Shown: in pieces, positions 6,819-57,024 of the stretch
How positions within the stretch are numbered: the first letter of the stretch is position 1
Layout: each line of letters begins with the position of its first letter
Virus record (IMG/VR): IMGVR_UViG_3300033407_000008
Span: 6,466 to 70,465 of that record
Strand: one strand, 5' to 3'
From: a virus
Taxonomy: Duplodnaviria; Caudoviricetes
DNA: 64,000 nt
Notes under the pieces: generated by a model
The model's input: the letters and a program-made list of their open reading frames with translations, nothing else
Database searches by the model: none
Told to the model about the DNA's origin: nothing
Program-made: the position numbers and the translations under genes

Positions 6819-7037
6819 GTGGATCTGCGAGAGCTCGAGGTGCTCGACGTCGAGGAGTTGCTACGGGTCAGCAGCACCGCCCTCTCGGTCGCCGGCCGCA
6901 AGCTCGACGCCGGGGACGGCCGCGACCGGCGGGAGGCAGTCCGGTGCCGGGCGCTGGCCGCCGAAGTGCGGTCGCTCCGGGAGCCCAGGGTGACGGTGGC
7001 CTCGCTACCGACGCTCATCGGTCTCGACGTGCCGTGA
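6819..7037 (+). CDS. Hypothetical protein
   Basis: GTG start with GGAGG RBS; GTGA overlap with MTase. Confidence 0.5.
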   Translation: MDLRELEVLDVEELLRVSSTALSVAGRKLDAGDGRDRREAVRCRALAAEVRSLREPRVTVASLPTLIGLDVP

Positions 7038-10257: not shown

Positions 10258-10773
10258 GTGAGCGAACCCACCCCGCTAGCCTATTGGGTGAGGCTCCAGG
10301 GCCACACCAAGTACCACCAGGCCAGCCGCCAGCGCGTCGCCTTCGAGGACGGCATGCGGTCTCGCGTACACAGGCAACCGGAGGCCGAGAATGCCTACGA
10401 ACACGCCGGCTTCAGAGCGGCTTTCCGGGCCGGGTGGAAGCGGACCGACGACGCCATCAGGAAGGGCCAGAAGTTCGTCTGCGACTGCTGCGGTTCCGCC
10501 CTAGAGAGACTGCTCGACGCCGTCCTCGACCGCAAAAAGAGGACGCTCTCCTGTCCGCTTTGCAAGGGCACAGACTTCTCCTATCAGGAAAAGGTATGGA
10601 CCTCCAGACGACTCGGGAAGCTCGACGCCATCGAAGGGACGGAAACCCTTTCGCTCGGCATCTTCGCCGGCGAGGACGTGCTCTCCGACAGCGAGCACGA
10701 TGCGTGCCTGTTCTGTAACGACTGCGCTCGGGAGCTTACGATCCCCGAGGGGCTGGAGATCGAGTGGCTGTAG
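10258..10773 (+). CDS. Rmf/CrpP-like N-terminal domain plus Zn ribbons
   Basis: AFEDG..SR....NAY....AAFRAGW resembles the Rmf pattern; CDCC, CPLC and CLFC..C motifs. Confidence 0.5.
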   Translation: MSEPTPLAYWVRLQGHTKYHQASRQRVAFEDGMRSRVHRQPEAENAYEHAGFRAAFRAGWKRTDDAIRKGQKFVCDCCGSALERLLDAVLDRKKRTLSCPLCKGTDFSYQEKVWTSRRLGKLDAIEGTETLSLGIFAGEDVLSDSEHDACLFCNDCARELTIPEGLEIEWL

Positions 10774-10810
10774 ATATTGCCCTTACCTATCACTTACGAA
10801 TCGAGGTCTC

Positions 10811-19885: not shown

Positions 19886-20149
19886 ATGCGGACCGTAGAC
19901 ACTTTCGAGATCATCCACGAGGAGCGCGGGAAAGCGCTCGCCATCGTGCTTGGTAGTCCAGACGGACCTGACGGAGCCACCATCAGGTTCGACACGTTCT
20001 ACACGCGGATCTGGTCGTTCCAGACCGCCATATTTAACCTCGGGGAGCAGTGCGGGAAGGTCGGCGTCTTTCCCTCGCACAACATCATGCCGGCGCTCTT
20101 CGCCAAGCTCGAGGAGCACTGGACTCGGATAGGTCAGGAGGTACGATGA
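19886..20149 (+). CDS. Hypothetical protein
   Basis: GAGGAGG RBS; between TerL and portal. Confidence 0.55.
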   Translation: MRTVDTFEIIHEERGKALAIVLGSPDGPDGATIRFDTFYTRIWSFQTAIFNLGEQCGKVGVFPSHNIMPALFAKLEEHWTRIGQEVR

Positions 20150-40700: not shown

Positions 40701-43700
40701 ATGTCCGACGTCGTCGAGCGCCTGCTGATCGAGATCGAGGCCAAGGGGGCCGACGCCACGCTGACCCGCCTCCAGGGTGGGTTGAGCGGCGTCGGCTCCA
40801 AGGCCGTCGACGCGGACAAGCGGGTCCGCCAGTTCGGCGAGGGCCAGGGCCGGCTCTCCCGCGCCTCCGCCGGCGTCGATCGAGCCCTCCGGGGCCAGAT
40901 CGCCCAGCTCGCCGCCCTGGGGGGCGCCTACCTTTCGATCCGGGCGGTGATCGACGGCATCGGCGGGAGCGTCCGGATCTTCACCGAGTTCGAGGCGACC
41001 CTCGCCGCGGTCCAGGCGGTGACCAATGCCACGGCGGTCGAGTTCGCCAACTTGAAGCAGCAAGCGAAGGAGCTGGGCGAGGCCACGATCTTTTCCGGCG
41101 TCGAGGCGGCCCAGGCCCAGGAGCTCCTCGCCCGGGCCGGCTTCCGCGTCTCCGAGGTGATCGGTGCGCTGCCGGGGCTCCTCGACCTTGCCGCCGCCGC
41201 CCAGCTCGGCCTTGGGGAAGCGACGGACATCACCGCCCAGGCCCTCCGCGGCTTCAACCTCGAATCGGACCAGAGCGGGCGCGTGGCGGACGTCCTCGCC
41301 GCGGCGGCGGCCAACGCCAACACCAACGTCCAGATGCTCGGCGAGGGCATGTCCTACATCGCCCCCGTGGCGGCCGCCGTGGGCATCTCGATCGAGGAGG
41401 CGGCGGCGGCGATGGGGGTCCTGTCCGACGCCGGCCTCCAGGGCACCATGGCCGGCACGGGTCTGCGCCAGATCATCTCCGGCCTGATCGATCCGACCAA
41501 GGAAGCGGCCGAAGCCCTGGCTGCGCTCGGGGTGAGCGCCGAGGAGATCAACCCCAGCACCAACAGCCTGATCGGGATCGCCGAACGTCTCGCCGCGGCA
41601 AACATCGACGCCGCCACCGCCTTCACCGTCCTCGGCGACCGCGGCGCCCCGGCGCTTCTGGCGCTGGTGAGCCAGGCCCCCCGGCTGCGGGAGCTGACGG
41701 GCGTCATCGAGGACGCCGACGGGACGTCGAAGAGGATGGCGGCCACCATGCTCGACACGGTCAAGGGCGCCGCCGACGAGCTCGACTCGGTCATCGAGAG
41801 CCTGCGGATCGAGTTCGGGGAAGGCCTTGCGCCGGCGCTGCGGGAGAATCTGGCGCTCTCGACCGAGTTCTTCGGCACCCAGGGCGCCGCGGCAGAGGCG
41901 TTCGGCCGCCGGGTCGGAGCCGCCTTGAGCACGGTGGTGCGGGCACTGCTGTTCGTCGCCGACAACATCCATTTGGTGTCGGCCGCCTTGACTGTGCTGC
42001 TTGTGCGTGCCGCCGGTCTCCAAGCGGCGTCCCTTGTGGCGGTCTTCATCGGTTGGATTCAGCACCTCCAGCAAGTAGCGCTTGGTGCCCAACTGGCTAC
42101 TGCCGCTGAAAACCGGCTGACGGCTGCGGTGGCGGCCAACGCCGTGGTGATCGGCGCCAGCGGCACCGTTGCCGACCTCTATGCCGCAGAACTCCACGGC
42201 GTCGCCGGCTCCGTGGTCGCGACCGGTACTGTCCTCGATCTCTACGACGCGCGGCTCATCAAGACGACGGTGACAACGGGTGTGGCCACGGCGGCAACCG
42301 GTGCCCACGCCGTCGCCTCGAACGTCGCGACTGGAGCCATTATCCGGACGGCGGGGGCGACGACGGTCCTCGGCGTCGCCATGGAGCGGCTCAAGATCGC
42401 CTTCGCGACCAACCCGGTCACCATCATCATCACCGCCCTCTCCATCCTCGTCGGCGTCCTCTTGCTCGTGAAGAGTCGCACCGCCGAGGCAGCCGAAGCT
42501 CAGGAGGACTACAACGACCGCCTCCGGTTCGGGAGTGCCGAGGTCGAGGCCGCGACCCGCGCCCACGCCGAGCTCATCACGAAGCTCGAGCGCGAGATCG
42601 AGGTCCGGCGCGAGCTCCAGGGCCTGCTCTCGGAGTCGGCCGCCCGCCTGGCACAGCTCCAGCCCATTCTCGAGGCGGCTGAGACCGCCCTCGCCGGCGG
42701 CGACACCGAAGGCTACCGGGCCGCCATCGCCGCGGCGAAGGAGCTCGGGGTGGCCTTCAGCTCGATCGCCGGCGATTCCGGCCTCGAGCGCCTCCGTCTC
42801 GAGGTCCGAGCCCTGGAGACCGACCTCGCTCGGGCGAGCACCGGGATTGAGCAGAGCGGCGCGGCGATCAAGAGCGTCGAGGACGCCATGGCGGCGAGCG
42901 CGGAGCAGACGCTCGACGCGGAGCTCCGGCTGCGGATCGAGCAGCGGGCTCGCCTCGCCGACATCGAATCCCTGGCTGCCAACGCCGAGGTGGCGATGCA
43001 CAACCTCATGGCCGCCGGCGGCGACGAGAACTCGGGCTTTTTCGTCGAGCTGGCGAAGGCGCGCGCGGAGCTCGGCCGGCTGGCCGCCGACGCCTCCGCC
43101 GCGGCCGACGAGCTCGAGCGGACGAACCAGCGCATCCTGGAGTTCGGCCAGGCGGTCAACGTGCGCCTGGGCCAGATGTTCCGGACCGGCGACATGGAGG
43201 GCTTCGAAGCCCTGCTGCGCTCGCTCCCCCAGGATCTGTTCCACACCGTCTTCGGCGAAGCCTCCGATGTCGAGGCCGTGCTCAAGGCGTACCAGGAGGC
43301 CCGCGTCCGGCTCGACGAGTACGCCGAGAGCCAGCGGAAGGGCGCCGGCGAAACGAACCGCCTCTCGGACGAGCAGAAGAAGCAGCTCGAGCGCTTCCAG
43401 GAGCTGCGAACGGAGCTTCTGGCACAGATCGCCGGCCTCGAGGACGTGGCCCGGGCCTACGAAAGTGGGGTTGTCGCCGGCGAGCGGGCGGTCGGCAACC
43501 TGGAGCTTGAGGCGCGCATCCGACAGGTGACGAAGGACCTCACCGAGCAGCAGGCGGCCGCCCTCGAAGACCTGGTGCGGGCTCAGGCCCAGGCCGAGGC
43601 CCGCGCCACGGGCGCCGCCTCGATCGCCGACCTCTTGAAGCAGGTGGACGCCCAGGGCGCCCTCGTGAGCGCCTACCACGGCGGCCGCGCCGCCCTCGAG

Positions 43701-46700
43701 GCCGCCCGCCGGGCCAACGCCCTGGCGGAGAAGCAGCACGAGGCGACCGCCGGCGCCGCCGACGAGCAGGTCGACACGATCCGGGAGCTGGTCCGCATCC
43801 TCTTCAACCTGGAGCGCTCGCTCGAAACCCTCCAGGTCCGAGACGACCTCCGGCGCGAGTTGGATCAGCTCGAGGACCTCCGAGACGCCTACGAGACCAA
43901 CGCCAACGCGGTCATGGAGACTGTCGCCGCCCAGGAGCTCCAGAACGAGATCCACGAGAAGACGGCCGGCTTGGTCGAGAAGGAGGCCAAGGAGATCGAG
44001 GAGCTGATCCGGACCCGGGCTCGGCTTCGGGCCGAGATCGGCGCCGGCGCCCGGGTGGCCGCCCTCGAGGAGGAGACCCGGCAGACCCGGGAGCTGGCGG
44101 CGGTCAAGCGCGAGGACTTCGCGACGGAGGACCAGTACCAGGCGGCGATCCGCGCCGTCAACGTCGAGCGTCAGGTCCGCCTGGAGTTGCTGGCGATCGA
44201 GGCCGAGCGCATGGCGGCGCTTGCCACAATCACCCGCGATGCGTTCGCGACCGAGGCCGAGTACCTGGCCGCTCTGGCAGAGGTCAACCGCACCTTCGCC
44301 GACTTCGCCCAGCGGGCCGAGGTCGCCATCCGGGCGAAGGCCGCTCTCGACCACCAGATGTCCAGCCAGGACGGCCTCACCACCTTCGACAAGTGGGTGG
44401 AGGCCGGGCACGCCCTCGCCGAGGTCCTCCGGGACGTGGACGAGGAGCTCGCCAACCTGGTCGAGTCCGCCGCGAATCTCCTCGATGCCTTCCAAAACAT
44501 GTCGGCCGAGGGCGGCAAGCTCAAGGCCGTGGTGGCCGGCCTGGGGGTCGTCCAGGCGGTAGGGACCGCCATCACCGGGCCGAACAACTACGCTGCGGAG
44601 GGGGCGCTGGTCGGCGCCATCGTGGGCCTCATCATCGGCGCCTACGCCGGGGACCCGGCCACCGGGGCGCAGGTCGGAGCGGCTGCGGGTGGAGCCCTGG
44701 GGAGCTTCATCAAAAAGGGATCGGACGAATTCCTAGCCGAGTTCGAGTTGACCGCGATGGGCGGCCTTGAGGGCGTCGCAACCAAGGTGGAGGGTGCGCT
44801 GGGCAGCGTCGGTCGACAGTTCATCGAGGCAATCGAGCGCGGTCTGGCCGCCGCCCTCGATGCCTTGGGAGCCTTCCTGGTCGGCATTCCAGACGTGTCG
44901 ATCAAGGTCCGCGACGGCATCTATTCCGTCTTCGTCGGCGCGGTCACCGCTCGTTTCAATTCGATGGCGGAGGCGGTGGACTTCGCCATCCTGGAGGTGC
45001 TGCGCCAGGGCGACATCATCGGCCTTTCGGACGAGGTAAAAACCGCGATCGAGAACTCGACCGCCGAGAGCTTCGCGGCTCTCGCTCAGGATATCGATTT
45101 CGCGCGCTGGGTCGAGCGGCTGCCGGAAATCGGCCAGCTCGCTTCCGACTCGGCGACGGCCCTCCTCAACGCAGTCGACCAGTACCAGGCGGCGCTCCGG
45201 AAGGCCAATGAGCTCGGGTTGGACACCGCCAAGATCGACCAGTGGTTCGCCCACACGCTCGACGCGATCCGAAAGAACGTCTTGGGCATCGTCGAGACGA
45301 ACGAAGAGCGGATCAAGAGAGAGGTCCTGGGCTTCAACCAGACCGTCATGTTGCTCCGGGCCGAGCAGGAGATGCGCCGGGCGGATCTCCTGATGAAGAA
45401 GGCCGAGCTCGGCGCCGAGCTGGCGCTCCTGGCCGCCAAGCACAAGATCTCCCTGGCTGACCTTCAGGCCATGGCCGCCCACGTCGCAGCCCAGGGCCGG
45501 CTGACCCAGGCGATGATGGAAATCGGGAAGGCAACCCTGGAGATGGTCAACGCCATGTTCCAGGCGCTGGCTGCGATCGACGTCGCCCTCGCCACGGTCG
45601 ACTCGATCCTTGCTGGCCTGCCCGAGCTGATCTCGGACCAGGAGCTCGAAGATGCCTTGAACCGCGCGGGTCAGGGCGGTGGCGGTCAACGCAAGCGCGA
45701 GCGCGAGGAAGCCCTCGCGGAAATCGAAGCCCTCCGCCTCGAGGCCTCCGGCATGGCCGCCTCGGCAATCTCTCTGCGCCAGGGCTTCGCCGACTTCGAG
45801 ACGTGGATCGCCGACGCCCGGAAGCTCGGCATCGCGGAAGAGCAGCTCGCCCAAGCGCGCCGGGACAATCTCGCGATCACCGAGCGCGAGTTCCGGGCCC
45901 GCTTCGAGGGGGTGCTCCTGGGTGACGGGCCGGCCGGCTCGATCCAGGCGCTGATCGACGACTACCGGACCGCCTTCGACGAGGCGGCCGAGATCGCCAG
46001 AGAGCGGGCGAAGGTCATGGGCACCACCTTCGAGGAGGAGTTCGCCAAGCTGGCCGCTCTGGTGGGCGATGCCTTCGGCAAGGAGCTCCGGGACCTCGTG
46101 ACCGGCGAGATCGGCTCGCTGATCGCCGCCGGTGACCTCTCCGGCCTCCAGGAGCTCCTCGACGTCCTGATGGGGATCTCGACCGCCGGCCTCCCCCCGG
46201 AGATGATCGCCGTCCTCCAGGCCATCCCCGGCCTCGCCGAGCAGATCCGCCAGGCGATCGACACCCTTCAGGAAGCCGGCCTCGAGGGCGGCACCCCCGG
46301 GCTCGACCTCTCGCCCATCCGGGAGGATCTGGACCGCGCCCGCGGCCTGTCCGAGACCGATGTTGCCCTTCGGGAGATCGCTCAGCGCTTCGCCGCCGTC
46401 CGGGCGCAAGCCGAGCTCCTGGGGGCGAGCCAGCAGGAGCTGATCGACATCGAGCTCGCCCACCGTTCCGCAATCGAGGCGGTCCGGCAGGCGGTCCTCG
46501 AAAGCGTCCAGGAATACACCGACGCCGTCCTGGGGATCGGCGAGTACCAGCGGCGCCTGATCGACCTCCAGGACACCTTCCGGGCCGCCCGGGAGGGTCT
46601 GGCGGCCGCGGACGACGCCCTCGCCGGCCTGGAGGACCCAGACACCGCGCGGGGCAACGAGATCGTCGAGCGACGGGTTCAGGCGATCGAGGACATCTTC

Positions 46701-48872
46701 ATCAGCGGGCTCGACCGGCTGGTCGAGGCGATCGCCGACCGCTTCGGGATCGACCCCGGGGACCTCGCCGCCGGGCGTGAGCCCGAAGGCGAACGCGACC
46801 GGGGGGCGACCGAGGGGCTCGACGCCATCCGCGAGGTGCTCGAGTCGCTGCTCGACCCGGGCCTCACGGCCCGCGAGGTGCTCGAGGGCCTGATCGAAGC
46901 CATCCGGGGGGTGCGGGAGGACGCCGGAAGCGGCGGCCGCAGCCTGGACGGCCTCGGCGACGCCATCGACGGCATCCGGGACACGATCCGCGGCGTGGCC
47001 GGCGCCTTCGACACCCTGACCGAGGCCGAGCGCCGGGCCGTCCGGGCTCTCGGGGTGGACTTCATCGGCTCGCTCGAGGATCTGGGGGTCGCGCTGCCGA
47101 CGGATCTCGTCCTCGAGCTGGCCGAGGCGCAGTTCGCCCTCGCCCAGGCCGAGGCGATTTCCTCGGCCCTCGCCCTGGCCGCCGCGGGCGCCTTCGAGGG
47201 GCTGTCGATCACCCTCGCCGACCTCCTCGAGTTGATCGCCGGCGCCAGCTTCGACGCCTCGAGCTTCGGCCGCGGCTTCGGCGGCGGCAGTCCCCGCCCA
47301 AGTCCGGACCGAGACCCCCAGCAGGAGCTTGACCGGGTGCGCCAGCAGATCGCCGACCAGGCGCGGCAGTGGCGGGATCTCCTGCTCGACCCGTTCACCC
47401 GCCAGCTCCTCGACATGCAGCGGCGGTTCAGCGAGCTCTCGTTCGCCCTCGCAGAGGCGGGCGGTAGCGCCGCCGAGCTCGCCGACCTCGAGGACGCCCT
47501 GGGGGCCGCCCGGCAGCACCTGATCGACCAGCAGCTCCAGCCCATCCGGGACGTGCTCCGCGACTTCCAGACCGAGGGCCCCGGGGTCGCCAGCCGGGAA
47601 ACGCTCCACTCGCTCGAGAGCCAGTTCGCGGCGGCGATCGCCCGGGTTGAGGGCGGGGACTTCTCCGCCATTCAGGACGCGACGGACCTCGCCCGCCGGC
47701 TGCGCGAGGTGGGCGCCGGCTTCTTCGGCACCTCGTCCGGCGCCTTCGAGCACCTGGTCGACACGATGGAGGCCCAGCTCCAGGCGATCCTCGACTCCGG
47801 CGTTGAGCCGAACATCCCGGAGGAGACCCTCGACGTCGTGACCGAGAACCGGGACCTGACGGCGCAGATCCTCTCGGAGTTCCGGGGCTTCCGCGACCAG
47901 TCGAAGGGGCAGGCCGATGCCCTGCTCACCAGCCGCGCCCAGGAGCTGGTCGAGATTCTCGGCCGAGACGACATCACCCAGGGGCAGCTCCAGTCGACGA
48001 TCTCGCAGCTCCTGGCGATCGCCAGCCTCGAGAATCTGGTCGCGGGCAACACCCAGGCGGTATGGACCGCCCTGGGGGGGCTCCTCTCCGTCAAGGACCA
48101 GCTCTCGCCCCAGCAGCTCGCCCAGCTCCAGGCTGTGGCGCAGACCCTCCTCGGCGTCGAAGGGCTGTCGGATGCTCAGCGGGATCTCCTGGAGGACATC
48201 CTCGGCGAGACCGGCGACACGGCCCGCTCGATCTCCGACAGCGTGGCCGCCCAGATCGCCTTGAAGATCACGCAGCTTCAGCTCAAGGCGGTCGCCGATA
48301 GCCAGCTCTCCGAGCTCAAGACCCACACGGACCGCCTCGCCTCGATCCGCGACTGGCTGAAGTCGATCGATGCCACGCTCAAGGCGATGCCGAGCTTCCA
48401 AGGCGGCGGCCTCATGCCCTCAGACGGCCTCGCCTTCCTCCACGCCGGCGAGCAGGTCCTGACCCCGGGCCAAACCGCCCACTACGAGGCGCTGCTGCGC
48501 AGCAGCTCTGCGGCAACGCTCCGACCCGACCTCCTGAGCCTCTCGAGTGGCGCGATCGCCTCAGGGGCACGCCAGGCGGCTTCTGAGTTCGCCTCGCTTC
48601 TTCTGCGCCAGGCCGAGACGAGCCTCGCCTTCCGAACGGCCGCTCCCGAGCAGAGCGTGCGGATCATCCTGCCGCCGCCTTCGACCGCCTCCGGCGCCGA
48701 CGCGGCCGACGCCCGAGATCTCCGCCGGCGCCTGGAGGCCCAGGAGCGCCAGAACGATCTCCTGGTCGAGGAGATCCGAACGCTCAACAAGAAGATCGAC
48801 CGGCTGGCCGACGCCGTTCTGGCCTCGGTCCAGCAGGGCCAGCCGCGGGCCGGCGGGAGGGCGAACCCGTGA
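40701..48872 (+). CDS. Tape measure protein (TP901-type core), 2723 aa
   Basis: EAAQAQELLARAG, LPGLLDLAAA, GLQGTMAGTGLR; Ala/Glu-rich helical; C-terminal FQGGG...LHAGEQVL. Confidence 0.95.
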   Translation: MSDVVERLLIEIEAKGADATLTRLQGGLSGVGSKAVDADKRVRQFGEGQGRLSRASAGVDRALRGQIAQLAALGGAYLSIRAVIDGIGGSVRIFTEFEATLAAVQAVTNATAVEFANLKQQAKELGEATIFSGVEAAQAQELLARAGFRVSEVIGALPGLLDLAAAAQLGLGEATDITAQALRGFNLESDQSGRVADVLAAAAANANTNVQMLGEGMSYIAPVAAAVGISIEEAAAAMGVLSDAGLQGTMAGTGLRQIISGLIDPTKEAAEALAALGVSAEEINPSTNSLIGIAERLAAANIDAATAFTVLGDRGAPALLALVSQAPRLRELTGVIEDADGTSKRMAATMLDTVKGAADELDSVIESLRIEFGEGLAPALRENLALSTEFFGTQGAAAEAFGRRVGAALSTVVRALLFVADNIHLVSAALTVLLVRAAGLQAASLVAVFIGWIQHLQQVALGAQLATAAENRLTAAVAANAVVIGASGTVADLYAAELHGVAGSVVATGTVLDLYDARLIKTTVTTGVATAATGAHAVASNVATGAIIRTAGATTVLGVAMERLKIAFATNPVTIIITALSILVGVLLLVKSRTAEAAEAQEDYNDRLRFGSAEVEAATRAHAELITKLEREIEVRRELQGLLSESAARLAQLQPILEAAETALAGGDTEGYRAAIAAAKELGVAFSSIAGDSGLERLRLEVRALETDLARASTGIEQSGAAIKSVEDAMAASAEQTLDAELRLRIEQRARLADIESLAANAEVAMHNLMAAGGDENSGFFVELAKARAELGRLAADASAAADELERTNQRILEFGQAVNVRLGQMFRTGDMEGFEALLRSLPQDLFHTVFGEASDVEAVLKAYQEARVRLDEYAESQRKGAGETNRLSDEQKKQLERFQELRTELLAQIAGLEDVARAYESGVVAGERAVGNLELEARIRQVTKDLTEQQAAALEDLVRAQAQAEARATGAASIADLLKQVDAQGALVSAYHGGRAALEAARRANALAEKQHEATAGAADEQVDTIRELVRILFNLERSLETLQVRDDLRRELDQLEDLRDAYETNANAVMETVAAQELQNEIHEKTAGLVEKEAKEIEELIRTRARLRAEIGAGARVAALEEETRQTRELAAVKREDFATEDQYQAAIRAVNVERQVRLELLAIEAERMAALATITRDAFATEAEYLAALAEVNRTFADFAQRAEVAIRAKAALDHQMSSQDGLTTFDKWVEAGHALAEVLRDVDEELANLVESAANLLDAFQNMSAEGGKLKAVVAGLGVVQAVGTAITGPNNYAAEGALVGAIVGLIIGAYAGDPATGAQVGAAAGGALGSFIKKGSDEFLAEFELTAMGGLEGVATKVEGALGSVGRQFIEAIERGLAAALDALGAFLVGIPDVSIKVRDGIYSVFVGAVTARFNSMAEAVDFAILEVLRQGDIIGLSDEVKTAIENSTAESFAALAQDIDFARWVERLPEIGQLASDSATALLNAVDQYQAALRKANELGLDTAKIDQWFAHTLDAIRKNVLGIVETNEERIKREVLGFNQTVMLLRAEQEMRRADLLMKKAELGAELALLAAKHKISLADLQAMAAHVAAQGRLTQAMMEIGKATLEMVNAMFQALAAIDVALATVDSILAGLPELISDQELEDALNRAGQGGGGQRKREREEALAEIEALRLEASGMAASAISLRQGFADFETWIADARKLGIAEEQLAQARRDNLAITEREFRARFEGVLLGDGPAGSIQALIDDYRTAFDEAAEIARERAKVMGTTFEEEFAKLAALVGDAFGKELRDLVTGEIGSLIAAGDLSGLQELLDVLMGISTAGLPPEMIAVLQAIPGLAEQIRQAIDTLQEAGLEGGTPGLDLSPIREDLDRARGLSETDVALREIAQRFAAVRAQAELLGASQQELIDIELAHRSAIEAVRQAVLESVQEYTDAVLGIGEYQRRLIDLQDTFRAAREGLAAADDALAGLEDPDTARGNEIVERRVQAIEDIFISGLDRLVEAIADRFGIDPGDLAAGREPEGERDRGATEGLDAIREVLESLLDPGLTAREVLEGLIEAIRGVREDAGSGGRSLDGLGDAIDGIRDTIRGVAGAFDTLTEAERRAVRALGVDFIGSLEDLGVALPTDLVLELAEAQFALAQAEAISSALALAAAGAFEGLSITLADLLELIAGASFDASSFGRGFGGGSPRPSPDRDPQQELDRVRQQIADQARQWRDLLLDPFTRQLLDMQRRFSELSFALAEAGGSAAELADLEDALGAARQHLIDQQLQPIRDVLRDFQTEGPGVASRETLHSLESQFAAAIARVEGGDFSAIQDATDLARRLREVGAGFFGTSSGAFEHLVDTMEAQLQAILDSGVEPNIPEETLDVVTENRDLTAQILSEFRGFRDQSKGQADALLTSRAQELVEILGRDDITQGQLQSTISQLLAIASLENLVAGNTQAVWTALGGLLSVKDQLSPQQLAQLQAVAQTLLGVEGLSDAQRDLLEDILGETGDTARSISDSVAAQIALKITQLQLKAVADSQLSELKTHTDRLASIRDWLKSIDATLKAMPSFQGGGLMPSDGLAFLHAGEQVLTPGQTAHYEALLRSSSAATLRPDLLSLSSGAIASGARQAASEFASLLLRQAETSLAFRTAAPEQSVRIILPPPSTASGADAADARDLRRRLEAQERQNDLLVEEIRTLNKKIDRLADAVLASVQQGQPRAGGRANP

Positions 48873-51955: not shown

Positions 51956-53862
51956 GCAACGGCGAATCGATCAACTTCCTGCTCGGCTGCGCGCCGAACT
52001 GGATCGATCACCCAGACACGGTGCTGACCGCGGGCGGTGAGGTTGCCGGCCGGGAGGTCGAGAACCTCCAGACGAAGCTCATGGGGGAGACGTGGCGGAC
52101 GCCCAACCTGCTGCCCCACAGGACGAAGGTGACGGTGGACTTCGGAGCGACGGAGCGCGCCTCGCGGGCTCTTCTGATCGGGAACCACAACCTGCTCGGA
52201 GCGGACAACTTCGTCCGGGTTCGGCGGGATGATGAGATTACGGAGGACCGGTTGTGGCCGGCGTACAACGATGGGGTGAACGCCGACGCCTTCATCGCTC
52301 CCGATAACGTGACCGGGACTCCATCGATGCTGCACGAAGATCCGCTCGGATCGATCACCACGTGGGTAACTCCAACTGATCCGGAGTTCACAGGAGAGAT
52401 GGACTTTCGCGTGCGGCTGCAAAAGCCACGCAGGCCACTGAAGACTGGTCCGTTTCTTCAGTCGATCCTCGTCGCGTGGCGACCGGAAGACGAGTTGAAG
52501 GTTCTGGGCAGTCTTTACGTCGCCCTATATCAGAACGGCGTAGATCAAGCGATTGGTATCAATCAGGACGGCGATCTCGGAGGCGAAGAAGGTACTAGAG
52601 TTCTGGAGCTGAAATTCGATGCGGCCGACCTGGATGATCCCACGGGGGCCGACCTCGAGGTGCTTATCTCCTCGGTTGGTGCCGGCCTCCATGAAATCGG
52701 AGGCGTGGTCTGGCACGCTACCTGGGACAACCGGGAGTATAGGATCACCTCCCCTCCGTCCGGCGCTCAGGTGATTTCACCCACGAACACCGACCCGACG
52801 ACTCCTAACGCTGGCGAGGTCAGCGGCAACCCATTCGATCCGCCGTTCAACGATGCATTGCACATCGAAGCGAACAACAAGAGCGCCGACATGTCGTTCC
52901 GAGTCGGCCTGGTCGAAGCGGATGTCGTGGGGAAAGTCGCCCAAGGTGCCAACCTTCAGGTCGTCGCAATCCGGTGCGAGAGGACGCAGGGAACGGGCTC
53001 GCCCATCGCCACGGTGGAGGTATGGCAGAACGGCGTCGATCAGGGGATCTCCGGGCAGGTTACGATCAGCACCAACGGCGACCACTTCGTGATCGTGCCC
53101 TTCGACGCGGCAGACCTTGACGACACGAGCGGAGCAAACTTTGAAGTCAAGGTTATCGGGACCACCAACGGCTCGGATAACATCCGGGTTTTCGAGGTCA
53201 TGTGGTTCGCCCTCACCACAGAGACCGGCCATGAGTTCGACTCCGGCTATATCGAAATCAGCCCGGTCAACCCCAATTCCCTGTGGGGTGAAGTCATTCC
53301 CGATGATGTCGGCAAGGTGGTGATCGCTTCCCTGCCGGTGATCTACGAAAACGCTGCCGGGTCGGCGATCGCTTTGACCGGTCGCTTCATGCTGATCGAA
53401 TTCTACGCTCGCTCTGCCTACATCGAAACCGCCTCCCCTGGAGTCTTCGAGTTCACAAACCTGTTGGCATCAGGAGACGACTTCCTTGATCTCGGCCGCC
53501 TCGCCGAAGGCCCGGGCCTCGACGGCATGAACCTCGCTCGCGGCTTCCAGTTCGAGGTGGTCGATCTCTCGAGCTCCGACACCTCCGATGGCGGCGTTCT
53601 GTGGGAAGACCAGGAGGACGTCTACCGAGTGGCGCGGATCAAGCTCACCTCGCTCAGGAAAGAGATCGCCCTGTCTGACCTCTTCGAGTACCTCTACCGG
53701 CGCGTGGGGACGACCGAGGACGTGCTCTTGGTGATCTACCCGGAGGATGAGCAGTTCCGGCGGTCGGCCTTCGTGTGGGGGCCGATGGTGCGCCCCGGGG
53801 GCCTCGACAACGATGAGGGGGTCCGTTTCTTCTCCAACTTGCAGATTCGGGAGAGACTATGA
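51952..53862 (+). CDS. Distal-tail-like protein with duplicated internal module
   Basis: VENLQT...WRT N-terminus; LDLGRL...G.Q...D.S C-terminus; QNGVDQ...FDAADLDD repeated twice. Confidence 0.65.
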   Translation: MSNGESINFLLGCAPNWIDHPDTVLTAGGEVAGREVENLQTKLMGETWRTPNLLPHRTKVTVDFGATERASRALLIGNHNLLGADNFVRVRRDDEITEDRLWPAYNDGVNADAFIAPDNVTGTPSMLHEDPLGSITTWVTPTDPEFTGEMDFRVRLQKPRRPLKTGPFLQSILVAWRPEDELKVLGSLYVALYQNGVDQAIGINQDGDLGGEEGTRVLELKFDAADLDDPTGADLEVLISSVGAGLHEIGGVVWHATWDNREYRITSPPSGAQVISPTNTDPTTPNAGEVSGNPFDPPFNDALHIEANNKSADMSFRVGLVEADVVGKVAQGANLQVVAIRCERTQGTGSPIATVEVWQNGVDQGISGQVTISTNGDHFVIVPFDAADLDDTSGANFEVKVIGTTNGSDNIRVFEVMWFALTTETGHEFDSGYIEISPVNPNSLWGEVIPDDVGKVVIASLPVIYENAAGSAIALTGRFMLIEFYARSAYIETASPGVFEFTNLLASGDDFLDLGRLAEGPGLDGMNLARGFQFEVVDLSSSDTSDGGVLWEDQEDVYRVARIKLTSLRKEIALSDLFEYLYRRVGTTEDVLLVIYPEDEQFRRSAFVWGPMVRPGGLDNDEGVRFFSNLQIRERL

Positions 53863-54278
53863 TCCCCCGTCTCCAGGTGGAGATCCTGCTCGACACGGCG
53901 GCGCACGCGGCGACGGTGCGCGACTCCCTCTCGGCACAGGCGGCCTCCCGTCCGCGGCACGGCGGCCGCTTCGAAGCCGCGCCGGCGGTCGAGGCGGACG
54001 AGGCCGGTCGCGGCCACGTTGTGCGCCTGGACGTCCGCTACCCCGCCCGGGGGGACCGGGACGCCGTCCGGGACTGGGTTCGCCAGCAGCTCGACGAGCA
54101 CCCCGTGGTCAAGGGCTGGATCCGCGGTATCGTGGTCTCGACGCACCTCTGTACCCATGACGAGGAGCGTCCGGGCCCGTGCTCGGAGAGCGAGCACGTC
54201 GTGGTTCTGAGCCGGGGGGAGAGGGTCAACGGCGGGAGCGACCCGGCGAGGGCCGAGACCAGGAGAACTAACTCGTGA
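53859..54278 (+). CDS. Hypothetical protein
   Basis: ATGA-coupled; HLCTHDE...PC motif. Confidence 0.6.
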   Translation: MIPRLQVEILLDTAAHAATVRDSLSAQAASRPRHGGRFEAAPAVEADEAGRGHVVRLDVRYPARGDRDAVRDWVRQQLDEHPVVKGWIRGIVVSTHLCTHDEERPGPCSESEHVVVLSRGERVNGGSDPARAETRRTNS

Positions 54279-54679
54279 CCGAGATCCTTGACAGACTCCG
54301 CGTCCTCACCGCCTCGCTCACGAGCCCGGACCTGCTCGCCAAGCTCGTCGAGAGCCTTCCCGATGCGCTGGTAGTGGTCGACGAGGGGGGGCTCGTCATC
54401 CTGTTCAACGAACAGGCCGAACTGCTCTTCGGCTACCACCGCTCCGAGGTGCTCGGCAAGGCGGTAGAGATCCTCGTTCCGGAGGCGGCGCGAGAGCTGC
54501 ATATAAAACACCGGGCAGGCTTCGTCGCCGAGCCTCGGAACCGGCCGATGGGGCTCGGTCTCAACCTTTCCGGCCGCCACAAAAACGGCTCCGAGTTTCC
54601 GGTCCAAATCAACCTCTCGCCGGTGCAGACCCCTGATGGCCTATTCGTGTCGGCAGTCATTAGAAAGAAGCGAGCATGA
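54275..54679 (+). CDS. Stand-alone PAS (S-box) domain protein
   Basis: ESLPDALVVVD..G.VILFNEQAELLFGY...EVLGKAVEILVPE...H...GRHKNGSEFPV.INLSP...VSAVIR. Confidence 0.9.
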   Translation: MTEILDRLRVLTASLTSPDLLAKLVESLPDALVVVDEGGLVILFNEQAELLFGYHRSEVLGKAVEILVPEAARELHIKHRAGFVAEPRNRPMGLGLNLSGRHKNGSEFPVQINLSPVQTPDGLFVSAVIRKKRA

Positions 54680-54915
54680 GCGATGCCGGGCTTGAGGGCT
54701 GGGGCGAGTACAGGAGGCTGATCCTCCAAGAGTTGGAGCGACTGGCTCGGCAGGTTCAAGAGCTGAACATCAAGATCGACAATTTCCGCGCGAGCGACAT
54801 CGCGGACATCAAGGTCGAGATCGCCATGCTGAAGGTCAAAGCCGGGGTCTGGGGTGCTATCGGGGCGGCGATTCCAGTGCTGGCGGCGGCGCTGTGGTGG
54901 TTACTGTCGAAGTGA
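54676..54915 (+). CDS. Holin-like protein (coiled coil plus C-terminal TM)
   Basis: GVWGAIGAAIPVLAAALWWLL; ATGA-coupled to PAS. Confidence 0.6.
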   Translation: MSDAGLEGWGEYRRLILQELERLARQVQELNIKIDNFRASDIADIKVEIAMLKVKAGVWGAIGAAIPVLAAALWWLLSK

Positions 54916-54927
54916 TACAAGGGCTCC

Positions 54928-55392
54928 ATGATCCACGATGCGACCGCCAGAAAACTCCCCGCCGAGCCACTCCCTGACTCATATTTGTCAAGGCTTGCGC
55001 AAGGGGTTTCGAGCGTGACCGCTAAGACAAAGGAGCAGGTTCACGACCTGACGAAGGGATGGTTCCCGGCGACGAAGACCGCCGGCTGGATCGTGGCTGC
55101 CGTCTTCCTTGGCATGTGGGTACAGGCCAAGATTTCCGATGTCGAGTTGCTCAAGCGAGAGCAGGCCAAGACGACGGCCACCCTTGAAGAGATCCGGTCT
55201 GCTGTGCAGTCGATCCGTGACGATAGGGTGGCTGCGCAAAACGCAGTAATCGATCTCAAGGCGCAGATGATCGCGACCGAGGAAGCTCGGAAGAGATTCG
55301 AGTTGGAGTTCCGTCTGTTTGAAGATAAGGTGTGGGGTCGGGTCAGTCACATGCCCTACACAAACCCGGGACGTAGATCCCAACAGGAGTGA
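54928..55392 (+). CDS. TM plus coiled-coil protein (holin/antiholin or i-spanin-like)
   Basis: WIVAAVFLGMWV then long heptad region; lysis context. Confidence 0.5.
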   Translation: MIHDATARKLPAEPLPDSYLSRLAQGVSSVTAKTKEQVHDLTKGWFPATKTAGWIVAAVFLGMWVQAKISDVELLKREQAKTTATLEEIRSAVQSIRDDRVAAQNAVIDLKAQMIATEEARKRFELEFRLFEDKVWGRVSHMPYTNPGRRSQQE

Positions 55393-55604
55393 AAGCTATG
55401 GGACACAGCGAAGAGCACAATCGATGCATCCTGATCGGCGGGTGCGCCGCCTCGGCGCAGGCCGCACTTGACGCGGCGGCCGTCGAGCTCGAGCGGGCCG
55501 GAGATCACGCGGGGCTCTCTATGGTCGCTCGCGCCCGGCAGCCCCTCGGCGAGCTGGCGCGAGCCTACCCGTGCGATCGCGGCCGGGGGGAGAGCGGTAC
55601 ATGA
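55389..55604 (+). CDS. Hypothetical protein
   Basis: GTGA-coupled (or ATG at 55398). Confidence 0.4.
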   Translation: MKAMGHSEEHNRCILIGGCAASAQAALDAAAVELERAGDHAGLSMVARARQPLGELARAYPCDRGRGESGT

Positions 55605-55733
55605 CCAAGATGAGCCAGCCCGGGGCCGGCACAGGCCCATTCCCGCCGTGCGTCGGCGCAGTAGCTCAGGTCGGCGCCGCGATCGCGAAGGCCCTCTCGC
55701 CCCCGAAGGCCGGGCCGGCCCCGAAGGGGAACG

Positions 55734-56531
55734 ATGGCAAGCGCTGAGGATTGGGCCGAGCGCAACGCCGCCTTCGTCGGCAGGTTCCAGGCGGCGCTCG
55801 GGCTCCAGGAAGACCGACGGGCCGGAGACGACACGCACAACGCCCTGACCGGCCTGCTGCTGCGGGCCGGAGTCACGGCCCCGGAACCGCCGGCGCCGGC
55901 GGGGCTCGCCCTCAACCGCGGCATCCGGCTGCCCGCTGACCAGTACATGCCGACGAAGCAGGCCAAGAGCCTGATCGTGGTGCACCACACGGCCGGCGGC
56001 TCGGCTCGGTCTACTTTCGATTGGTGGAAGACCACGCCGGAGCGGATCGGCACCGCCTACATCGTCGAGCGGGACGGGACGGTCCACGAAGTCTTCGACC
56101 CGTCCTCCTGGGCCTACCACCTGGGCGTCAAGGGCGAGGTCGAGCTCGAACGCCGCTCCATCGGAATCGAGATCGCCTCGGAGGGCGGGCTCACCCCGGG
56201 GCCGGGTGACCTCTACGCGTTCGGGGTCGTCTCCGACCGCACACGCTTCCGGGGCGAGGTCTACGACCACGGGAGCGACTGGCGGGGCTTCCGCCACTTC
56301 GCCGCCTACACGGAACCGGCACTGCTCTCTGTCTTCGCCCTGGTCGACCTCCTGTGCTCGAGGTTCGGCATCCCCCGCCAGACGCCGGCGGCGGAGCTCG
56401 AGTACGATCAGGCGCTCAGGGGCTTCCGGGGGGTGATCGGCCACCACCACGTCCGGGCGGACAAGAGCGACGTCCACCCCGGCTTCCCGTGGGTTCGCCT
56501 GGTCGAGTCGGCTGGTCTGGCGCAGAGGTAG
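55734..56531 (+). CDS. Endolysin, N-acetylmuramoyl-L-alanine amidase (Amidase_2) with degenerate PG-binding domain
   Basis: IVVHHTAG, AYIVERDG, AYH, SIGIE, GHH...KSD.HPG; N-terminal FQAALGL..D..AG..T.AL. Confidence 0.9.
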   Translation: MASAEDWAERNAAFVGRFQAALGLQEDRRAGDDTHNALTGLLLRAGVTAPEPPAPAGLALNRGIRLPADQYMPTKQAKSLIVVHHTAGGSARSTFDWWKTTPERIGTAYIVERDGTVHEVFDPSSWAYHLGVKGEVELERRSIGIEIASEGGLTPGPGDLYAFGVVSDRTRFRGEVYDHGSDWRGFRHFAAYTEPALLSVFALVDLLCSRFGIPRQTPAAELEYDQALRGFRGVIGHHHVRADKSDVHPGFPWVRLVESAGLAQR

Positions 56532-56550: not shown

Positions 56551-56967
56551 ATGCCGATCTACTATCAGGAGGGCTTCCGCTACGTCCTCCACCAGCCCTA
56601 CGAGCTCGACTTGAGCGAGTACGGATTCCAGCCGATCATCCACGCGAAGATTGGCAACCCCTGGGTCTCGATCGACGAGCACTGCATCCTACGGATCAGC
56701 GCGACCTACGCCTGGGACGGCGATTCCGGGCCGGCGCGAAACACCCTGGCATCGCGCCGGGCCTCCCTGGTGCACGATGCCCTCTACCAGCTCATCCGGA
56801 TCGGGGCGATTCGCCCCACGCAGAAGCATCTGGCGGACCAGGTCTACCGAGACATCCTCTTGGAAAACCGCATGTGGCCACCCCGGGCATGGTGGAGATC
56901 GCAGGGTCTCCGGCTCTTCGGAGCCAACTCCCTGACCCGGGAGCGGCCGGTGCTGGTGGCTCCATGA
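56551..56967 (+). CDS. DUF1353-family protein
   Basis: YAWDG.SGP, ASLVHDALY, AD.VY...L, LRLFG. Confidence 0.8.
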   Translation: MPIYYQEGFRYVLHQPYELDLSEYGFQPIIHAKIGNPWVSIDEHCILRISATYAWDGDSGPARNTLASRRASLVHDALYQLIRIGAIRPTQKHLADQVYRDILLENRMWPPRAWWRSQGLRLFGANSLTRERPVLVAP

Positions 56968-56977
56968 GGTAGGCGGG

Positions 56978-57024
56978 GCGCCCCGGGGTGGGCTGCCAGG
57001 CTTCGGCCCCGGGGCGCTGTCTTT
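56978..57024 (+). terminator. Intrinsic terminator of the late operon
   Basis: GCGCCCCGGGG (56978-88) pairs with CCCCGGGGCGC (57007-17), followed by TGTCTTT. Confidence 0.7.

What the first reader, a model, noticed from the sequence alone, without database searches (positions are those of the whole stretch)
54275..56531. Orphan FixL/DosP-like PAS sensor translationally coupled to the lysis cassette
Seen: a 134-aa protein that is only a PAS domain, ending at IRKKRA where the usual DITERK linker to an output domain would start. It overlaps the upstream gene by GTGA and the downstream holin-like gene by ATGA, followed by a TM coiled-coil gene and the amidase. The segment VPEAARELHIKH...GRHKNGSEFPV places a His where heme-PAS proteins such as FixL and DosP have their proximal ligand (recalled alignment, not computed). 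Knowledge: phage sensor domains are known mainly as PAS-LuxR regulators (VqmA of VP882), not as lysis genes. Inference: a ligand-, O2- or redox-gated antiholin, or a lysis-timing switch acting by protein-protein contact.
Basis: partly seen in the sequence, partly recalled or inferred. Interest (0 to 1): 0.75.

Follow-up and report, generated by a model that had tools for sequence, protein, structure and literature searches.

The report
Phage heme-type PAS sensor, membrane partner
An uncultured 70-kb tailed phage encodes, between its tail genes and its cell-wall amidase, a small stand-alone sensor protein of the heme-binding FixL/DosP/FG214 type coupled to a tiny membrane-anchored helix, so the phage may tie a late membrane event such as host bursting to the cell's oxygen or redox state, but nothing has been tested at the bench.

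Summary
Window 54275-54679 encodes a 134-aa protein that is only a PAS domain. It overlaps the gene before it by GTGA and the gene after it by ATGA, and lies 1 kb upstream of an Amidase_2 endolysin.

It is not an orphan. It belongs to a clade of stand-alone phage PAS proteins, 45-70% identical across phage contigs of 34-69% GC, separate from the kinase PAS domains that are its nearest cellular relatives.

Its closest solved relatives, by sequence and by fold, are all heme-PAS domains (FG214, FixL, DosP). The proximal His (H76) and a Met at the FG214 Met172 position (M92) are almost invariant. The FixL Arg220 and FG214 His175 positions are not conserved.

In 26 of 27 loci with readable downstream DNA, the next gene encodes a single-pass membrane protein. 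Here that is a 79-aa tail-anchored helix of no known family, which I call h79.

The reverse search adds something new. h79 relatives (3,755 cluster representatives) are often preceded by other one-domain sensors (other PAS types, GAF, cupin) or by none.

The lysis link is only partial. Some PAS loci sit next to endolysins, one phage has its own holin as well, and a cellular clade exists.

This scan has reported the same module on other genomes before.

The parts
53859..54278 (+). 139-aa ORF of no known family. It is the last gene of the tail block, and its stop overlaps the PAS start (GTGA).
   Evidence: coordinates and overlap. Searches find no Pfam or PHROG family. GC3 is 0.89.
54275..54679 (+). 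Stand-alone heme-type PAS sensor, 134 aa. It has an N-terminal cap of two helices plus the PAS core. H76 is the predicted proximal heme ligand and M92 the predicted distal ligand.
   Evidence: Pfam PAS, E 3.4e-15. Best PDB profile hits are FG214 (10jx, 2e-28), DosP (9e-21) and FixL (7e-20), against 4e-6 for the nearest non-heme PAS. AF2 model has pLDDT 85.5. The top Foldseek hits are heme PAS. Residue census.
54676..54915 (+). h79: a 79-aa tail-anchored membrane helix. It has the conserved motif W-x-EYRRLIL-x-ELERL, then AMLKVKAGVWG leading into a Gly/Ala-rich C-terminal TM. Its start overlaps the PAS stop (ATGA). It is the presumed output partner of the sensor.
   Evidence: coordinates. Family of 35 close homologues with no Pfam match. 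phrog_1103 (unknown function) matches 10 of 35. 3,755 cluster representatives at E<=1e-3. AF2 predicts one continuous helix, residues 3-78, pLDDT 87.8.
54928..55392 (+). 154-aa membrane protein with a TM at about residues 52-70 followed by a coiled coil. It resembles an i-spanin or holin accessory, but its family is unknown.
   Evidence: only weak phrog_1863. A homologue lies just upstream of the PAS gene in L002 (30% identity). No other viral relatives were found.
55389..55604 (+). Uncertain 71-aa ORF (GTGA overlap with the previous gene). It contains CILIGGC, a lipobox-like string without a proper hydrophobic signal peptide.
   Evidence: The frame/GC3 analysis is ambiguous. No family match.
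55601..55747 (+). Uncertain 48-aa ORF. It has an ATGA overlap with the ORF before it and overlaps the amidase start by 14 nt.
   Evidence: sequence. (GC3 0.85 in this frame, measured on the longer 55571-55747 ORF). Coding status not established.
55734..56531 (+). Endolysin: N-acetylmuramoyl-L-alanine amidase, 265 aa.
   Evidence: Pfam Amidase_2, E 9.5e-15. PHROG amidase/endolysin families. tblastn matches annotated amidases of Tenacibaculum phages.
56551..56967 (+). DUF1353-like 138-aa protein, the last gene of the block. A weak terminator-like hairpin follows at 57000-57015.
   Evidence: Pfam DUF1353, E 5e-4, below the family cut-off. phrog_1158, E 1e-12. Terminator scan not above chance.

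Best explanation
The 134-aa protein is a cytoplasmic b-heme PAS sensor, made late in infection together with the tail and lysis genes. Its predicted axial ligands are His76 and Met92. This is the hexacoordinate His/Met type seen in ferrous DosP and in dithionite-treated FG214, and it lacks the FixL Arg220 oxygen switch.

It is co-translated with h79, a 79-aa tail-anchored helix. I infer that the PAS domain docks on the cytoplasmic part of h79. A change in heme redox or ligand state (O2, CO, NO or redox poise, that is, the host's respiratory state) would then alter what h79 does in the membrane.

In this phage the most likely output is control of the timing of membrane permeabilisation before the amidase acts. 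That would make it a regulator of hole formation, or h79 itself the hole-former.

What is shown: the fold, the heme-PAS kinship, the conserved ligand residues, the separate stand-alone phage clade, the coupling to a membrane partner gene, and the position next to the amidase. What is inferred: heme binding, PAS-h79 contact, h79 topology, and any effect on lysis.
For: Sensor type:
- The PDB profile search puts only heme-PAS domains at the top (FG214 2e-28, DosP 9e-21, FixL 7e-20). The next class, LOV, scores 4e-6.
- Foldseek on the AF2 model (pLDDT 85.5) gives the same order.
- H76 aligns with FG214 His156, DosP His77 and the FixL proximal His. M92 aligns with FG214 Met172.
- H76 is kept in 55 of 56 phage-clade sequences and M92 in 49 of 56. 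The one sequence that lacks H76 (P0026) also lacks M92.

Dedicated gene:
- The phage stand-alone PAS proteins form their own clade, apart from the kinase PAS domains.
- They are 45-70% identical across contigs of 34-69% GC.

Coupling:
- In 26 of 27 stand-alone loci with readable downstream DNA, a single-pass membrane protein gene starts at, or overlaps, the PAS stop.
- The closest relative, L043, shares only PAS and h79 with the window.

Input-output logic:
- h79 relatives in other phages are preceded by other one-domain sensors. Among 38 neighbouring genes Pfam finds PAS in 12, GAF in 2, Cupin_2 in 2 and STAS in 1.
- One metagenomic protein (P0074) fuses a PAS_3 domain to an h79 module.

Lysis link:
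- Window order is tail genes, PAS, h79, TM/coiled-coil protein, amidase. The genes from 53859 to 56531 are chained by overlaps apart from one 12-nt gap, and all lie on one strand.
- Endolysin-type genes lie within about 1.8 kb of the pair in the window, L001, L028, L043 and L077, and within 4 kb in L006 and L073.
- No recognised holin family is present in the window's cassette.
Against: - No heme, binding or lysis measurement exists.
- The FixL Arg220 and FG214 His175 positions are not conserved (L96 and G95), so the ligand chemistry cannot be read off from either model protein.
- h79 matches no holin family and lacks the charged C-terminal tail typical of holins.
- In L001 a complete Phage_holin_10 holin, an endolysin and an Rz-like spanin lie beside the pair, so h79 is not needed as the holin there.
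- Across 62 non-redundant h79 loci, only about 4 have a lysis-type domain within 1.7 kb, roughly what chance would give. Baseplate, terminase and portal neighbours are common.
- A sister clade of PAS+h79 lies in conserved cellular context (Peptidase_S24, ETR1_N-like, pyrD, HAD) in alphaproteobacterial MAGs.
- h79 topology is unsettled. Two rare fusion proteins (P0074, P0075) would be easier to explain with the helix outside the cytoplasm.
Confidence: 0.45

Rival explanations
1. The PAS-h79 pair is a real sensor plus membrane-effector module, but its output is not lysis. It would act on another membrane process late in infection or in lysogens. Candidates are superinfection exclusion, control of host respiration or membrane potential, or docking of assembly steps at the membrane. 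Its position near the amidase here would reflect the usual insertion hot-spot between tail and lysis genes.
For: - The h79 family as a whole is not enriched next to endolysins. It is found between terminase and portal genes (L050, L070, L072), after tail fibres and near baseplate genes.
- L001 has its own full lysis cassette.
- A cellular clade keeps PAS+h79 next to an ETR1_N-like 3-TM protein in housekeeping context.
- Window 52-55 kb has a lower GC (61-64%) than the rest (about 69%), as expected of a mosaic insert.
Against: - Endolysin-type genes lie within about 1.8 kb in 5 of roughly 23 phage-type PAS loci, more than the 1-2 expected by chance.
- The window has no other recognisable holin.
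- The gene is chained by start/stop overlaps into the operon that ends with the amidase.
- T4 also keeps its holin next to tail-fibre genes and far from its endolysin (established knowledge), so lack of adjacency is weak evidence against a lysis role.
Confidence: 0.3
2. The PAS domain does not bind heme. It would bind another small ligand, or serve only as a protein-protein adaptor or dimerisation module for the membrane partner. The His and Met would then be conserved for structural reasons.
For: - Two residues that define the chemistry of the best-studied relatives are missing: FixL Arg220 and FG214 His175.
- Seven of 56 phage-clade members have replaced M92.
- PAS domains change ligands readily (established knowledge).
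- The partner accepts quite different sensor domains in other phages.
Against: - There is a gap of 14 orders of magnitude between the heme-PAS hits and all other PAS structures.
- H76 is kept in 74 of 75 sequences across the three close clades.
- H76 and M92 are lost together in P0026.
- His/Met ligation with exactly these positions was seen in the FG214 crystal (bioRxiv 10.64898/2026.03.15.711900).
Confidence: 0.15
3. It is a decaying fragment of a host FixL-like histidine kinase picked up by chance, with no function of its own.
For: The nearest cellular relatives are PAS domains inside multi-domain kinases (L008 Marinobacter, 55% identity; L009 Nitrospiraceae). The phage protein stops where their linker begins.
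Against: - The stand-alone proteins form their own clade.
- They keep 17 invariant columns.
- They recur in dozens of unrelated phage contigs with the same partner arrangement.
- The gene has a strong Shine-Dalgarno and a coding-type GC3.
Confidence: 0.03

Closest known systems
FG214 heme-PAS domain of the Fimbriimonas ginsengisoli HTH-PAS one-component regulator (PDB 10jx/10jy; bioRxiv 10.64898/2026.03.15.711900)
   Same: It is the best match by sequence profile (E 2e-28) and by fold. The proximal His156 aligns with H76, His159 with H79 and Met172 with M92. Like FG214, the protein has an N-terminal helical cap, and a PAS domain acts directly on a partner rather than on a kinase.
   Different: FG214 is fused to a DNA-binding HTH domain, whereas the phage protein has no second domain. 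The FG214 distal His175 is Gly here. The output here is presumed to be a separate membrane helix. No biochemistry exists for the phage protein.
FixL oxygen-sensor heme-PAS domain (B. japonicum / S. meliloti; PDB 1DRM, 1D06, 8JS5)
   Same: It aligns without gaps over about 105 residues (E 1e-14 with the single sequence). The proximal His lies in the same ...PE..R..H motif. It has the same fold.
   Different: FixL is a histidine kinase, and this protein has no HisKA/HATPase domains. The FixL Arg220 oxygen switch position is Leu here. A Met occupies the FixL Ile216 position, which points to six-coordinate heme rather than FixL's five-coordinate heme.
E. coli DosP (EcDOS) heme-PAS domain (PDB 1V9Y, 1VB6, 9BGV)
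   Same: It is a strong profile match (E 9e-21). His77 aligns with H76. DosP uses His/Met ligation in the ferrous state, the chemistry predicted here (established knowledge).
   Different: DosP Met95 aligns two residues away from M92. DosP carries a second PAS domain, a GGDEF domain and an EAL output domain, and there is no equivalent of its Arg97 here.
VqmA of vibriophage VP882 (PMC8284805)
   Same: It is the one well-studied phage-encoded PAS sensor, and it lets a phage read a host-state signal before lysis.
   Different: VqmA is a PAS-HTH transcription factor that binds the quorum signal DPO and acts at the lysogeny-lysis switch. The protein here has no DNA-binding domain, is of the heme type, and sits in a late operon with a membrane partner.
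Antiholins such as T4 RIII/RI, P1 LydB and lambda S107
   Same: They are small accessory proteins encoded with lysis genes that delay or tune hole formation through direct contact with a membrane protein. T4 RIII is cytoplasmic, as this PAS protein would be.
   Different: There is no sequence or fold relation. None of the known antiholins carries a cofactor-type sensor domain. The antiholin role of the PAS protein is a hypothesis only.

Membership tests
PAS fold (Pfam PF00989 / PF13426) | Significant match to the family model over the whole domain, and a five-stranded sheet with flanking helices | tested here: met
   PF00989 E 3.4e-15 (56.5 bits against a cut-off of 22.6) and PF13426 E 1e-11. 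The AF2 model (pLDDT 85.5) has the PAS strand and helix order.
Heme-binding PAS (FixL/DosP/FG214 class) | Closest solved relatives are heme-PAS domains, clearly ahead of other PAS classes | tested here: met
   The top 14 PDB sequences are all FG214, DosP or FixL (E 2e-28 to 3e-16). The next class scores 4e-6. Foldseek ranks them the same way.
Heme-binding PAS (FixL/DosP/FG214 class) | Proximal axial histidine on the F-alpha helix | tested here: met
   H76 aligns with FG214 His156, DosP His77 and the FixL RSRH His. It is kept in 55/56 phage, 16/16 chromosomal and 3/3 kinase sequences.
Heme-binding PAS (FixL/DosP/FG214 class) | Distal ligand or ligand-stabilising residue (FG214 Met172/His175; DosP Met95/Arg97; FixL Arg220) | tested here: inconclusive
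   M92 aligns with FG214 Met172 and is kept in 49/56 phage sequences. FG214 His175 corresponds to G95 and FixL Arg220 to L96. DosP Met95 is two positions off in the alignment.
Heme-binding PAS (FixL/DosP/FG214 class) | Heme b actually bound (Soret spectrum) | not testable with these tools
   Needs purified protein.
FixL-type sensor histidine kinase | HisKA and HATPase_c output domains after the PAS domain | tested here: not met
   The ORF ends 4 residues after the PAS core. The related kinases L008 and L009 continue for more than 250 residues.
Holin (for the 79-aa partner) | Membership of a described holin family | tested here: not met
   No Pfam or PHROG holin family matches the window protein or its 35 homologues. 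One member gives a chance-level 0.017 to Phage_holin_10.
Holin (for the 79-aa partner) | Small membrane protein with at least one TM and a charged cytoplasmic C-terminal tail, encoded next to the endolysin | tested here: inconclusive
   It has one C-terminal Gly/Ala-rich TM but only 1-4 residues after it. It lies 0.8 kb from the amidase in the window, but the family as a whole is not linked to endolysins.
Holin (for the 79-aa partner) | Forms lethal membrane lesions that release the endolysin | not testable with these tools
   Needs expression in a holin-null lysis system.
Two-component spanin (for 54928-55392 and 55389-55604) | i-spanin with an N-terminal TM and periplasmic coiled coil, plus an o-spanin lipoprotein with signal peptide and lipobox | tested here: inconclusive
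   The 154-aa protein has one TM (about residues 52-70) followed by a coiled coil, with no spanin family hit. The 71-aa ORF has LIGGC but no hydrophobic signal segment, and its coding status is unclear. The host envelope type is unknown.
VqmA-type phage PAS-HTH receptor | C-terminal DNA-binding HTH domain | tested here: not met
   It is a single-domain protein.

The most novel reading that the evidence does not exclude
Tailed phages carry a widespread plug-in sensing system. In it, one common tail-anchored membrane helix (the h79 family, thousands of clusters) is the effector, and interchangeable one-domain sensors encoded just upstream (heme PAS, other PAS types, GAF, cupin, STAS) are the inputs. 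Different phages could then gate hole formation, or another late membrane step, on oxygen/redox or metabolite signals from the host.
Probability: 0.25. Interest if true: 0.85.

Novelty: new variant of a known kind. Interest (0 to 1): 0.66.

Why it matters
Lysis timing is the main life-history trait of a lytic phage. Holin triggering is known to depend on membrane energisation, yet no phage is known to measure oxygen or redox state with a dedicated cofactor sensor.

A conserved phage heme-PAS protein wired to a membrane helix would be the first such device. It would give a simple two-gene system, 134 plus 79 residues, to test how a PAS signal passes to a separate membrane partner.

The finding that the same membrane partner is paired with other sensor domains in other phages suggests a general input-output architecture. 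Such an architecture would also be useful for engineering conditional lysis.

If the pair turns out not to control lysis, it would still define an uncharacterised family of phage membrane proteins, with 3,755 cluster representatives, and their sensors.

Tried and rejected
- The long contigs behind the protein hits P0006, P0024, P0026 and others could not be read. Synteny rests instead on related-loci scans.
- **Complex prediction.** Complex prediction with PAS (A1) and h79 (A2) scored 0.00 against a mark of 0.32, with no verdict. This is neither support nor evidence against binding.
- **Cultured-phage database.** A tblastn of the PAS protein against INPHARED found no match. No cultured phage carries it.
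- **Naming h79.** The ESM Atlas look-up gave only unnamed phage clusters and one DUF7201 cluster. Pfam did not confirm that lead.
- **Naming the 154-aa protein.** The Atlas gave no named family. A pattern scan of IMG/VR for its relatives found none.
- **A close relative without the pair.** I looked for a related phage lacking PAS-h79, to see whether the pair is an insertion. Amidase relatives (45% identity, L123-L127) share nothing else with the window.
- **Promoters and terminators.** The scan of 53-58 kb gave no promoter, and terminator-like sites were not above chance.
- **Host.** Terminase and portal are only 20-31% identical to proteins of Pseudomonas and Variovorax siphophages. No tRNA genes were found. 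The host was not identified.
- **Reading rejected: truncated kinase fragment.** See rival 4.
- **Reading rejected: h79 is the holin of every phage that carries it.** L001 has a separate Phage_holin_10 holin.
- One search had an off-by-one residue numbering error. It was corrected, and only one search is used.
Full report
**What is in the window**

The record is an IMG/VR virus contig of 70,465 bp, rated 90% complete by CheckV. The window covers bases 6466-70465 of it. It is a tailed phage of about 69% GC. It encodes DNA methyltransferases, a large terminase (18463-19875), a portal (20050-21789), a minor tail protein and a 2,723-aa tape-measure-sized ORF (40701-48872). After the distal tail genes the + strand carries a tight chain of ORFs:

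| Coordinates | Length | Identity |
|---|---|---|
| 53859-54278 | 139 aa | no family |
| 54275-54679 | 134 aa | PAS |
| 54676-54915 | 79 aa | called h79 here |
| 54928-55392 | 154 aa | one TM, then coiled coil |
| 55389-55604 | 71 aa | uncertain small ORF |
| 55601-55747 | 48 aa | uncertain small ORF |
| 55734-56531 | 265 aa | Amidase_2 endolysin |
| 56551-56967 | 138 aa | DUF1353-like |

An AGGAG lies 9 nt before the PAS start codon. Third-position GC supports coding for PAS (0.79) and h79 (0.81).

**The sensor**

Pfam sees a single PAS domain and nothing else (PF00989, E 3.4e-15). I built a profile of 29 stand-alone homologues (A1) and searched all PDB sequences with it.
- The top hits were only heme-PAS proteins: FG214 (10jx, E 2e-28), DosP (9e-21) and FixL (7e-20 to 3e-16).
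- The next class, LOV domains, scored only 4e-6.
- The AlphaFold2 model (pLDDT 85.5) gave the same ranking in Foldseek.

In the printed alignments, H76 matches FG214 His156, DosP His77 and the histidine of the FixL RSRH motif. H79 matches FG214 His159 and M92 matches FG214 Met172.

The FG214 preprint assigns His156 as the proximal ligand and His175 as the distal ligand in the ferric state. Its dithionite-soaked crystal shows a His156-Met172 pair (bioRxiv 10.64898/2026.03.15.711900).

I counted these residues in 78 non-redundant sequences.
- H76 is kept in 55/56 phage-clade, 16/16 chromosomal-clade and 3/3 kinase sequences.
- M92 is kept in 49/56, 15/16 and 3/3.
- P0026, the only phage-clade sequence without H76, has also lost M92.
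- The FG214 His175 position is mostly Gly, and the FixL Arg220 position is Leu in the window.

The predicted chemistry is His/Met six-coordination, or five-coordination. It is not the FixL arginine switch. Heme binding itself remains untested.

**Not an orphan and not a kinase fragment**

A search of 5.8 billion proteins returned 36 hits, nearly all 133-146 aa and 48-68% identical. Pattern-plus-tblastn scans found the gene in 7 IMG/VR contigs, 27 metagenome contigs and 7 genome contigs. The carriers range from 34% to 69% GC.

In cellular genomes the nearest relatives are PAS domains inside multi-domain histidine kinases. Examples are a 515-aa Marinobacter daepoensis protein (55% identity) and a 722-aa Nitrospiraceae protein. 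Both continue with ...AIRDITERK... exactly where the phage protein stops.

A maximum-likelihood tree of 64 sequences resolves three groups:
- kinase PAS domains (SH-aLRT 98);
- a stand-alone clade from alphaproteobacterial-type contigs (99);
- the phage stand-alone clade that holds the window protein (86).

**The partner**

Among stand-alone PAS loci with at least 300 nt of readable downstream DNA, 26 of 27 have a single-pass membrane protein gene that starts at or overlaps the PAS stop.
- Nineteen of these match an HMM of the window's 79-aa protein.
- Six carry a different partner, with an N-terminal TM and then a conserved ETKIDIFWKxVSFDAAKILHSP-like motif.
- One has a third type.
- L039 is the single exception.

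h79 has no Pfam family. PHROGs gives only phrog_1103, of unknown function, in 10 of 35 members. AlphaFold2 models h79 as one continuous helix, residues 3-78, at pLDDT 87.8. The conserved parts are the N-terminal W-x-EYRRLIL-x-ELERL and the AMLKVKAGVWG lead-in to a Gly/Ala-rich TM. Only 1-4 residues, usually basic, follow the TM. An exhaustive profile search finds 3,755 cluster representatives at E<=1e-3 and 763 at E<=1e-10. Almost all are 64-127 aa with the module at the C-terminal end.

The closest relative of the window pair is L043 (h79 72% identical). It shares PAS and h79 with the window and nothing else. The pair therefore moves as a unit.

**Reverse test: a new point**

I scanned IMG/VR with the h79 profile. 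It gave 92 relatives, of which 80 were kept.
- A FixL-type PAS gene lies directly upstream in 16 of the 80, or with one small gene between, and weakly in 5 more.
- In the remaining loci the upstream gene is often another small one-domain sensor. Pfam on 38 such neighbours found PAS families in 12, GAF in 2, Cupin_2 in 2 and STAS in 1.
- Elsewhere h79 follows tail-fibre genes or sits between terminase and portal.

A search for longer proteins found a single 213-aa metagenomic protein (P0074) in which a PAS_3 domain is fused to an h79 module. It also found one protein with h79 followed by an XRE HTH domain.

This pattern fits a constant membrane output with exchangeable inputs. It also shows that 'strictly coupled' holds from the PAS side only.

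**How strong is the lysis link?**

For it:
- In the window the pair sits between tail genes and the amidase, in the same overlapping chain of genes, and no recognised holin is present.
- L001 has, just upstream of PAS, an endolysin with PG_binding_1, a Phage_holin_10 holin (E 5e-17) and an Rz-like o-spanin.
- L028 reads tail-fibre-like genes, PAS, h79, then a PF11860 muramidase (E 2e-43).
- L043 has an M15-type peptidase 1.5 kb downstream of h79. L077 has an endolysin homologue 0.3 kb downstream of h79. L006 and L073 have M15-like genes at 3-4 kb.
- That makes 5 of roughly 23 non-redundant phage-type PAS loci with an endolysin-type gene within about 1.8 kb. One or two would be expected by chance.

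Against it:
- L001 shows that the pair can coexist with a complete canonical lysis set, so h79 is not the only holin there.
- A pooled Pfam census covered 150 ORFs within 1.7 kb of h79 in 62 loci. It found only a handful of lysis domains and more baseplate-type ones.
- The sister clade lies in conserved cellular context. Of six loci, 5 have Peptidase_S24 and 5 have an ETR1_N-like 3-TM protein right after h79, and aldo-keto reductase, DUF1194, pyrD and HAD genes also recur.

The lysis-timing idea is therefore the best guess for this phage, but it is not established.

**Mechanism proposed**

The PAS protein has no signal peptide. As a b-heme protein it should be cytoplasmic. It is probably a dimer through its two N-terminal cap helices, as in FixL and FG214; this is inference from the model.

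It is made in fixed ratio with h79 through the ATGA overlap. I infer that it binds the cytoplasmic N-terminal part of h79. I further infer that a change of heme state changes the oligomeric or membrane behaviour of h79's glycine-rich TM. That change would be oxidation or reduction, or displacement of Met92 by O2, CO or NO. It would then advance or delay membrane permeabilisation and the action of the amidase.

Every step after 'heme-type PAS next to a membrane helix' is inference. The topology of h79 is also open, because the two rare fusion proteins would fit an outward-facing helix better.

**Comparison and novelty**

As a domain, this is a new member of the heme-PAS class nearest to FG214. 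As a system, I found no description of a stand-alone heme-type sensor in phage late operons paired with an uncharacterised tail-anchored membrane helix. Four full-text searches were run. The only studied phage PAS sensor they returned is VqmA of VP882, a PAS-HTH regulator (PMC8284805).

This scan has already reported the same module at least eight times on other genomes, with the same reading. I reached the core points independently here. I add the reverse test with its sensor swapping, the second partner type, the tree, and a more cautious view of the lysis link.

I rate it a new variant of a known kind, with interest 0.66.

**Limits**

- The complex prediction gave no verdict.
- The host is unknown.

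Noticed in passing
L011:6854-7222, L024:1824-2342, L025:5672-6190, L029:5631-6077, L032:798-1241, L033:1727-2095, L041:5817-6185: In the cellular (alphaproteobacterial-type) clade, the PAS+h79 pair is followed by a protein of about 120 aa with three TMs. It matches the Pfam ETR1_N model (the ethylene-receptor copper/ethylene-binding domain) and has a CGLSH motif. Together these form a three-gene putative gas-sensing membrane set beside a Peptidase_S24 repressor-like gene.
   Followed up: partly
L006:3573-3968, L015:5329-5727, L016:871-1269, L017:447-821, L021:1089-1526: This is a second, unrelated partner type for the same PAS clade. It has an N-terminal TM and then a conserved ETKIDIFWKxVSFDAAKILHSP-like motif, and it also overlaps the PAS stop codon.
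   Followed up: partly
L056:3750-4274, L081:4511-4999, L085:1454-2095, L088:3805-4257, L080:5210-5596 and others: h79-family genes in other phage contigs are preceded by other small one-domain sensors: other PAS types, GAF or cupin. In one case a STAS domain protein follows instead.
   Followed up: partly
P0074 (213 aa) and P0075 (249 aa): Two single metagenomic proteins carry fusions. One has a lipoprotein-like signal, a PAS_3 domain and an h79 module. The other has an h79 module followed by a zinc-ribbon-like segment and an XRE HTH domain. Both bear on the topology of h79.
   Followed up: no
window 55389-55747: Two small overlapping ORFs (71 and 48 aa) lie between the TM/coiled-coil gene and the amidase, chained by GTGA and ATGA overlaps. 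The first contains a lipobox-like LIGGC without a normal signal peptide. Their coding status and any spanin role are unresolved.
   Followed up: partly
window 52000-55400: GC drops to 61-64% here, against about 69% elsewhere in the phage. This suggests that the distal tail, PAS and h79 region is a mosaic acquisition.
   Followed up: no
L001:57-1435: A compact canonical lysis cassette lies directly upstream of the PAS pair. It has an endolysin with PG_binding_1, a Phage_holin_10 holin, a 75-aa N-terminal-TM protein, and an overlapping Rz-like lipoprotein.
   Followed up: yes
L050:920-1126, L070:4230-4469, L072:3938-4150: In low-GC phage contigs the h79 homologue sits alone between the large terminase and the portal gene, with no sensor gene beside it.
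   Followed up: no
window 6944-8980 and 10700-12142: Two large DNA methyltransferase genes are present. The second combines a ParB-like N-terminal region with a methyltransferase. Another first-stage note on this genome flags a nuclease frame inside the first one.
   Followed up: no
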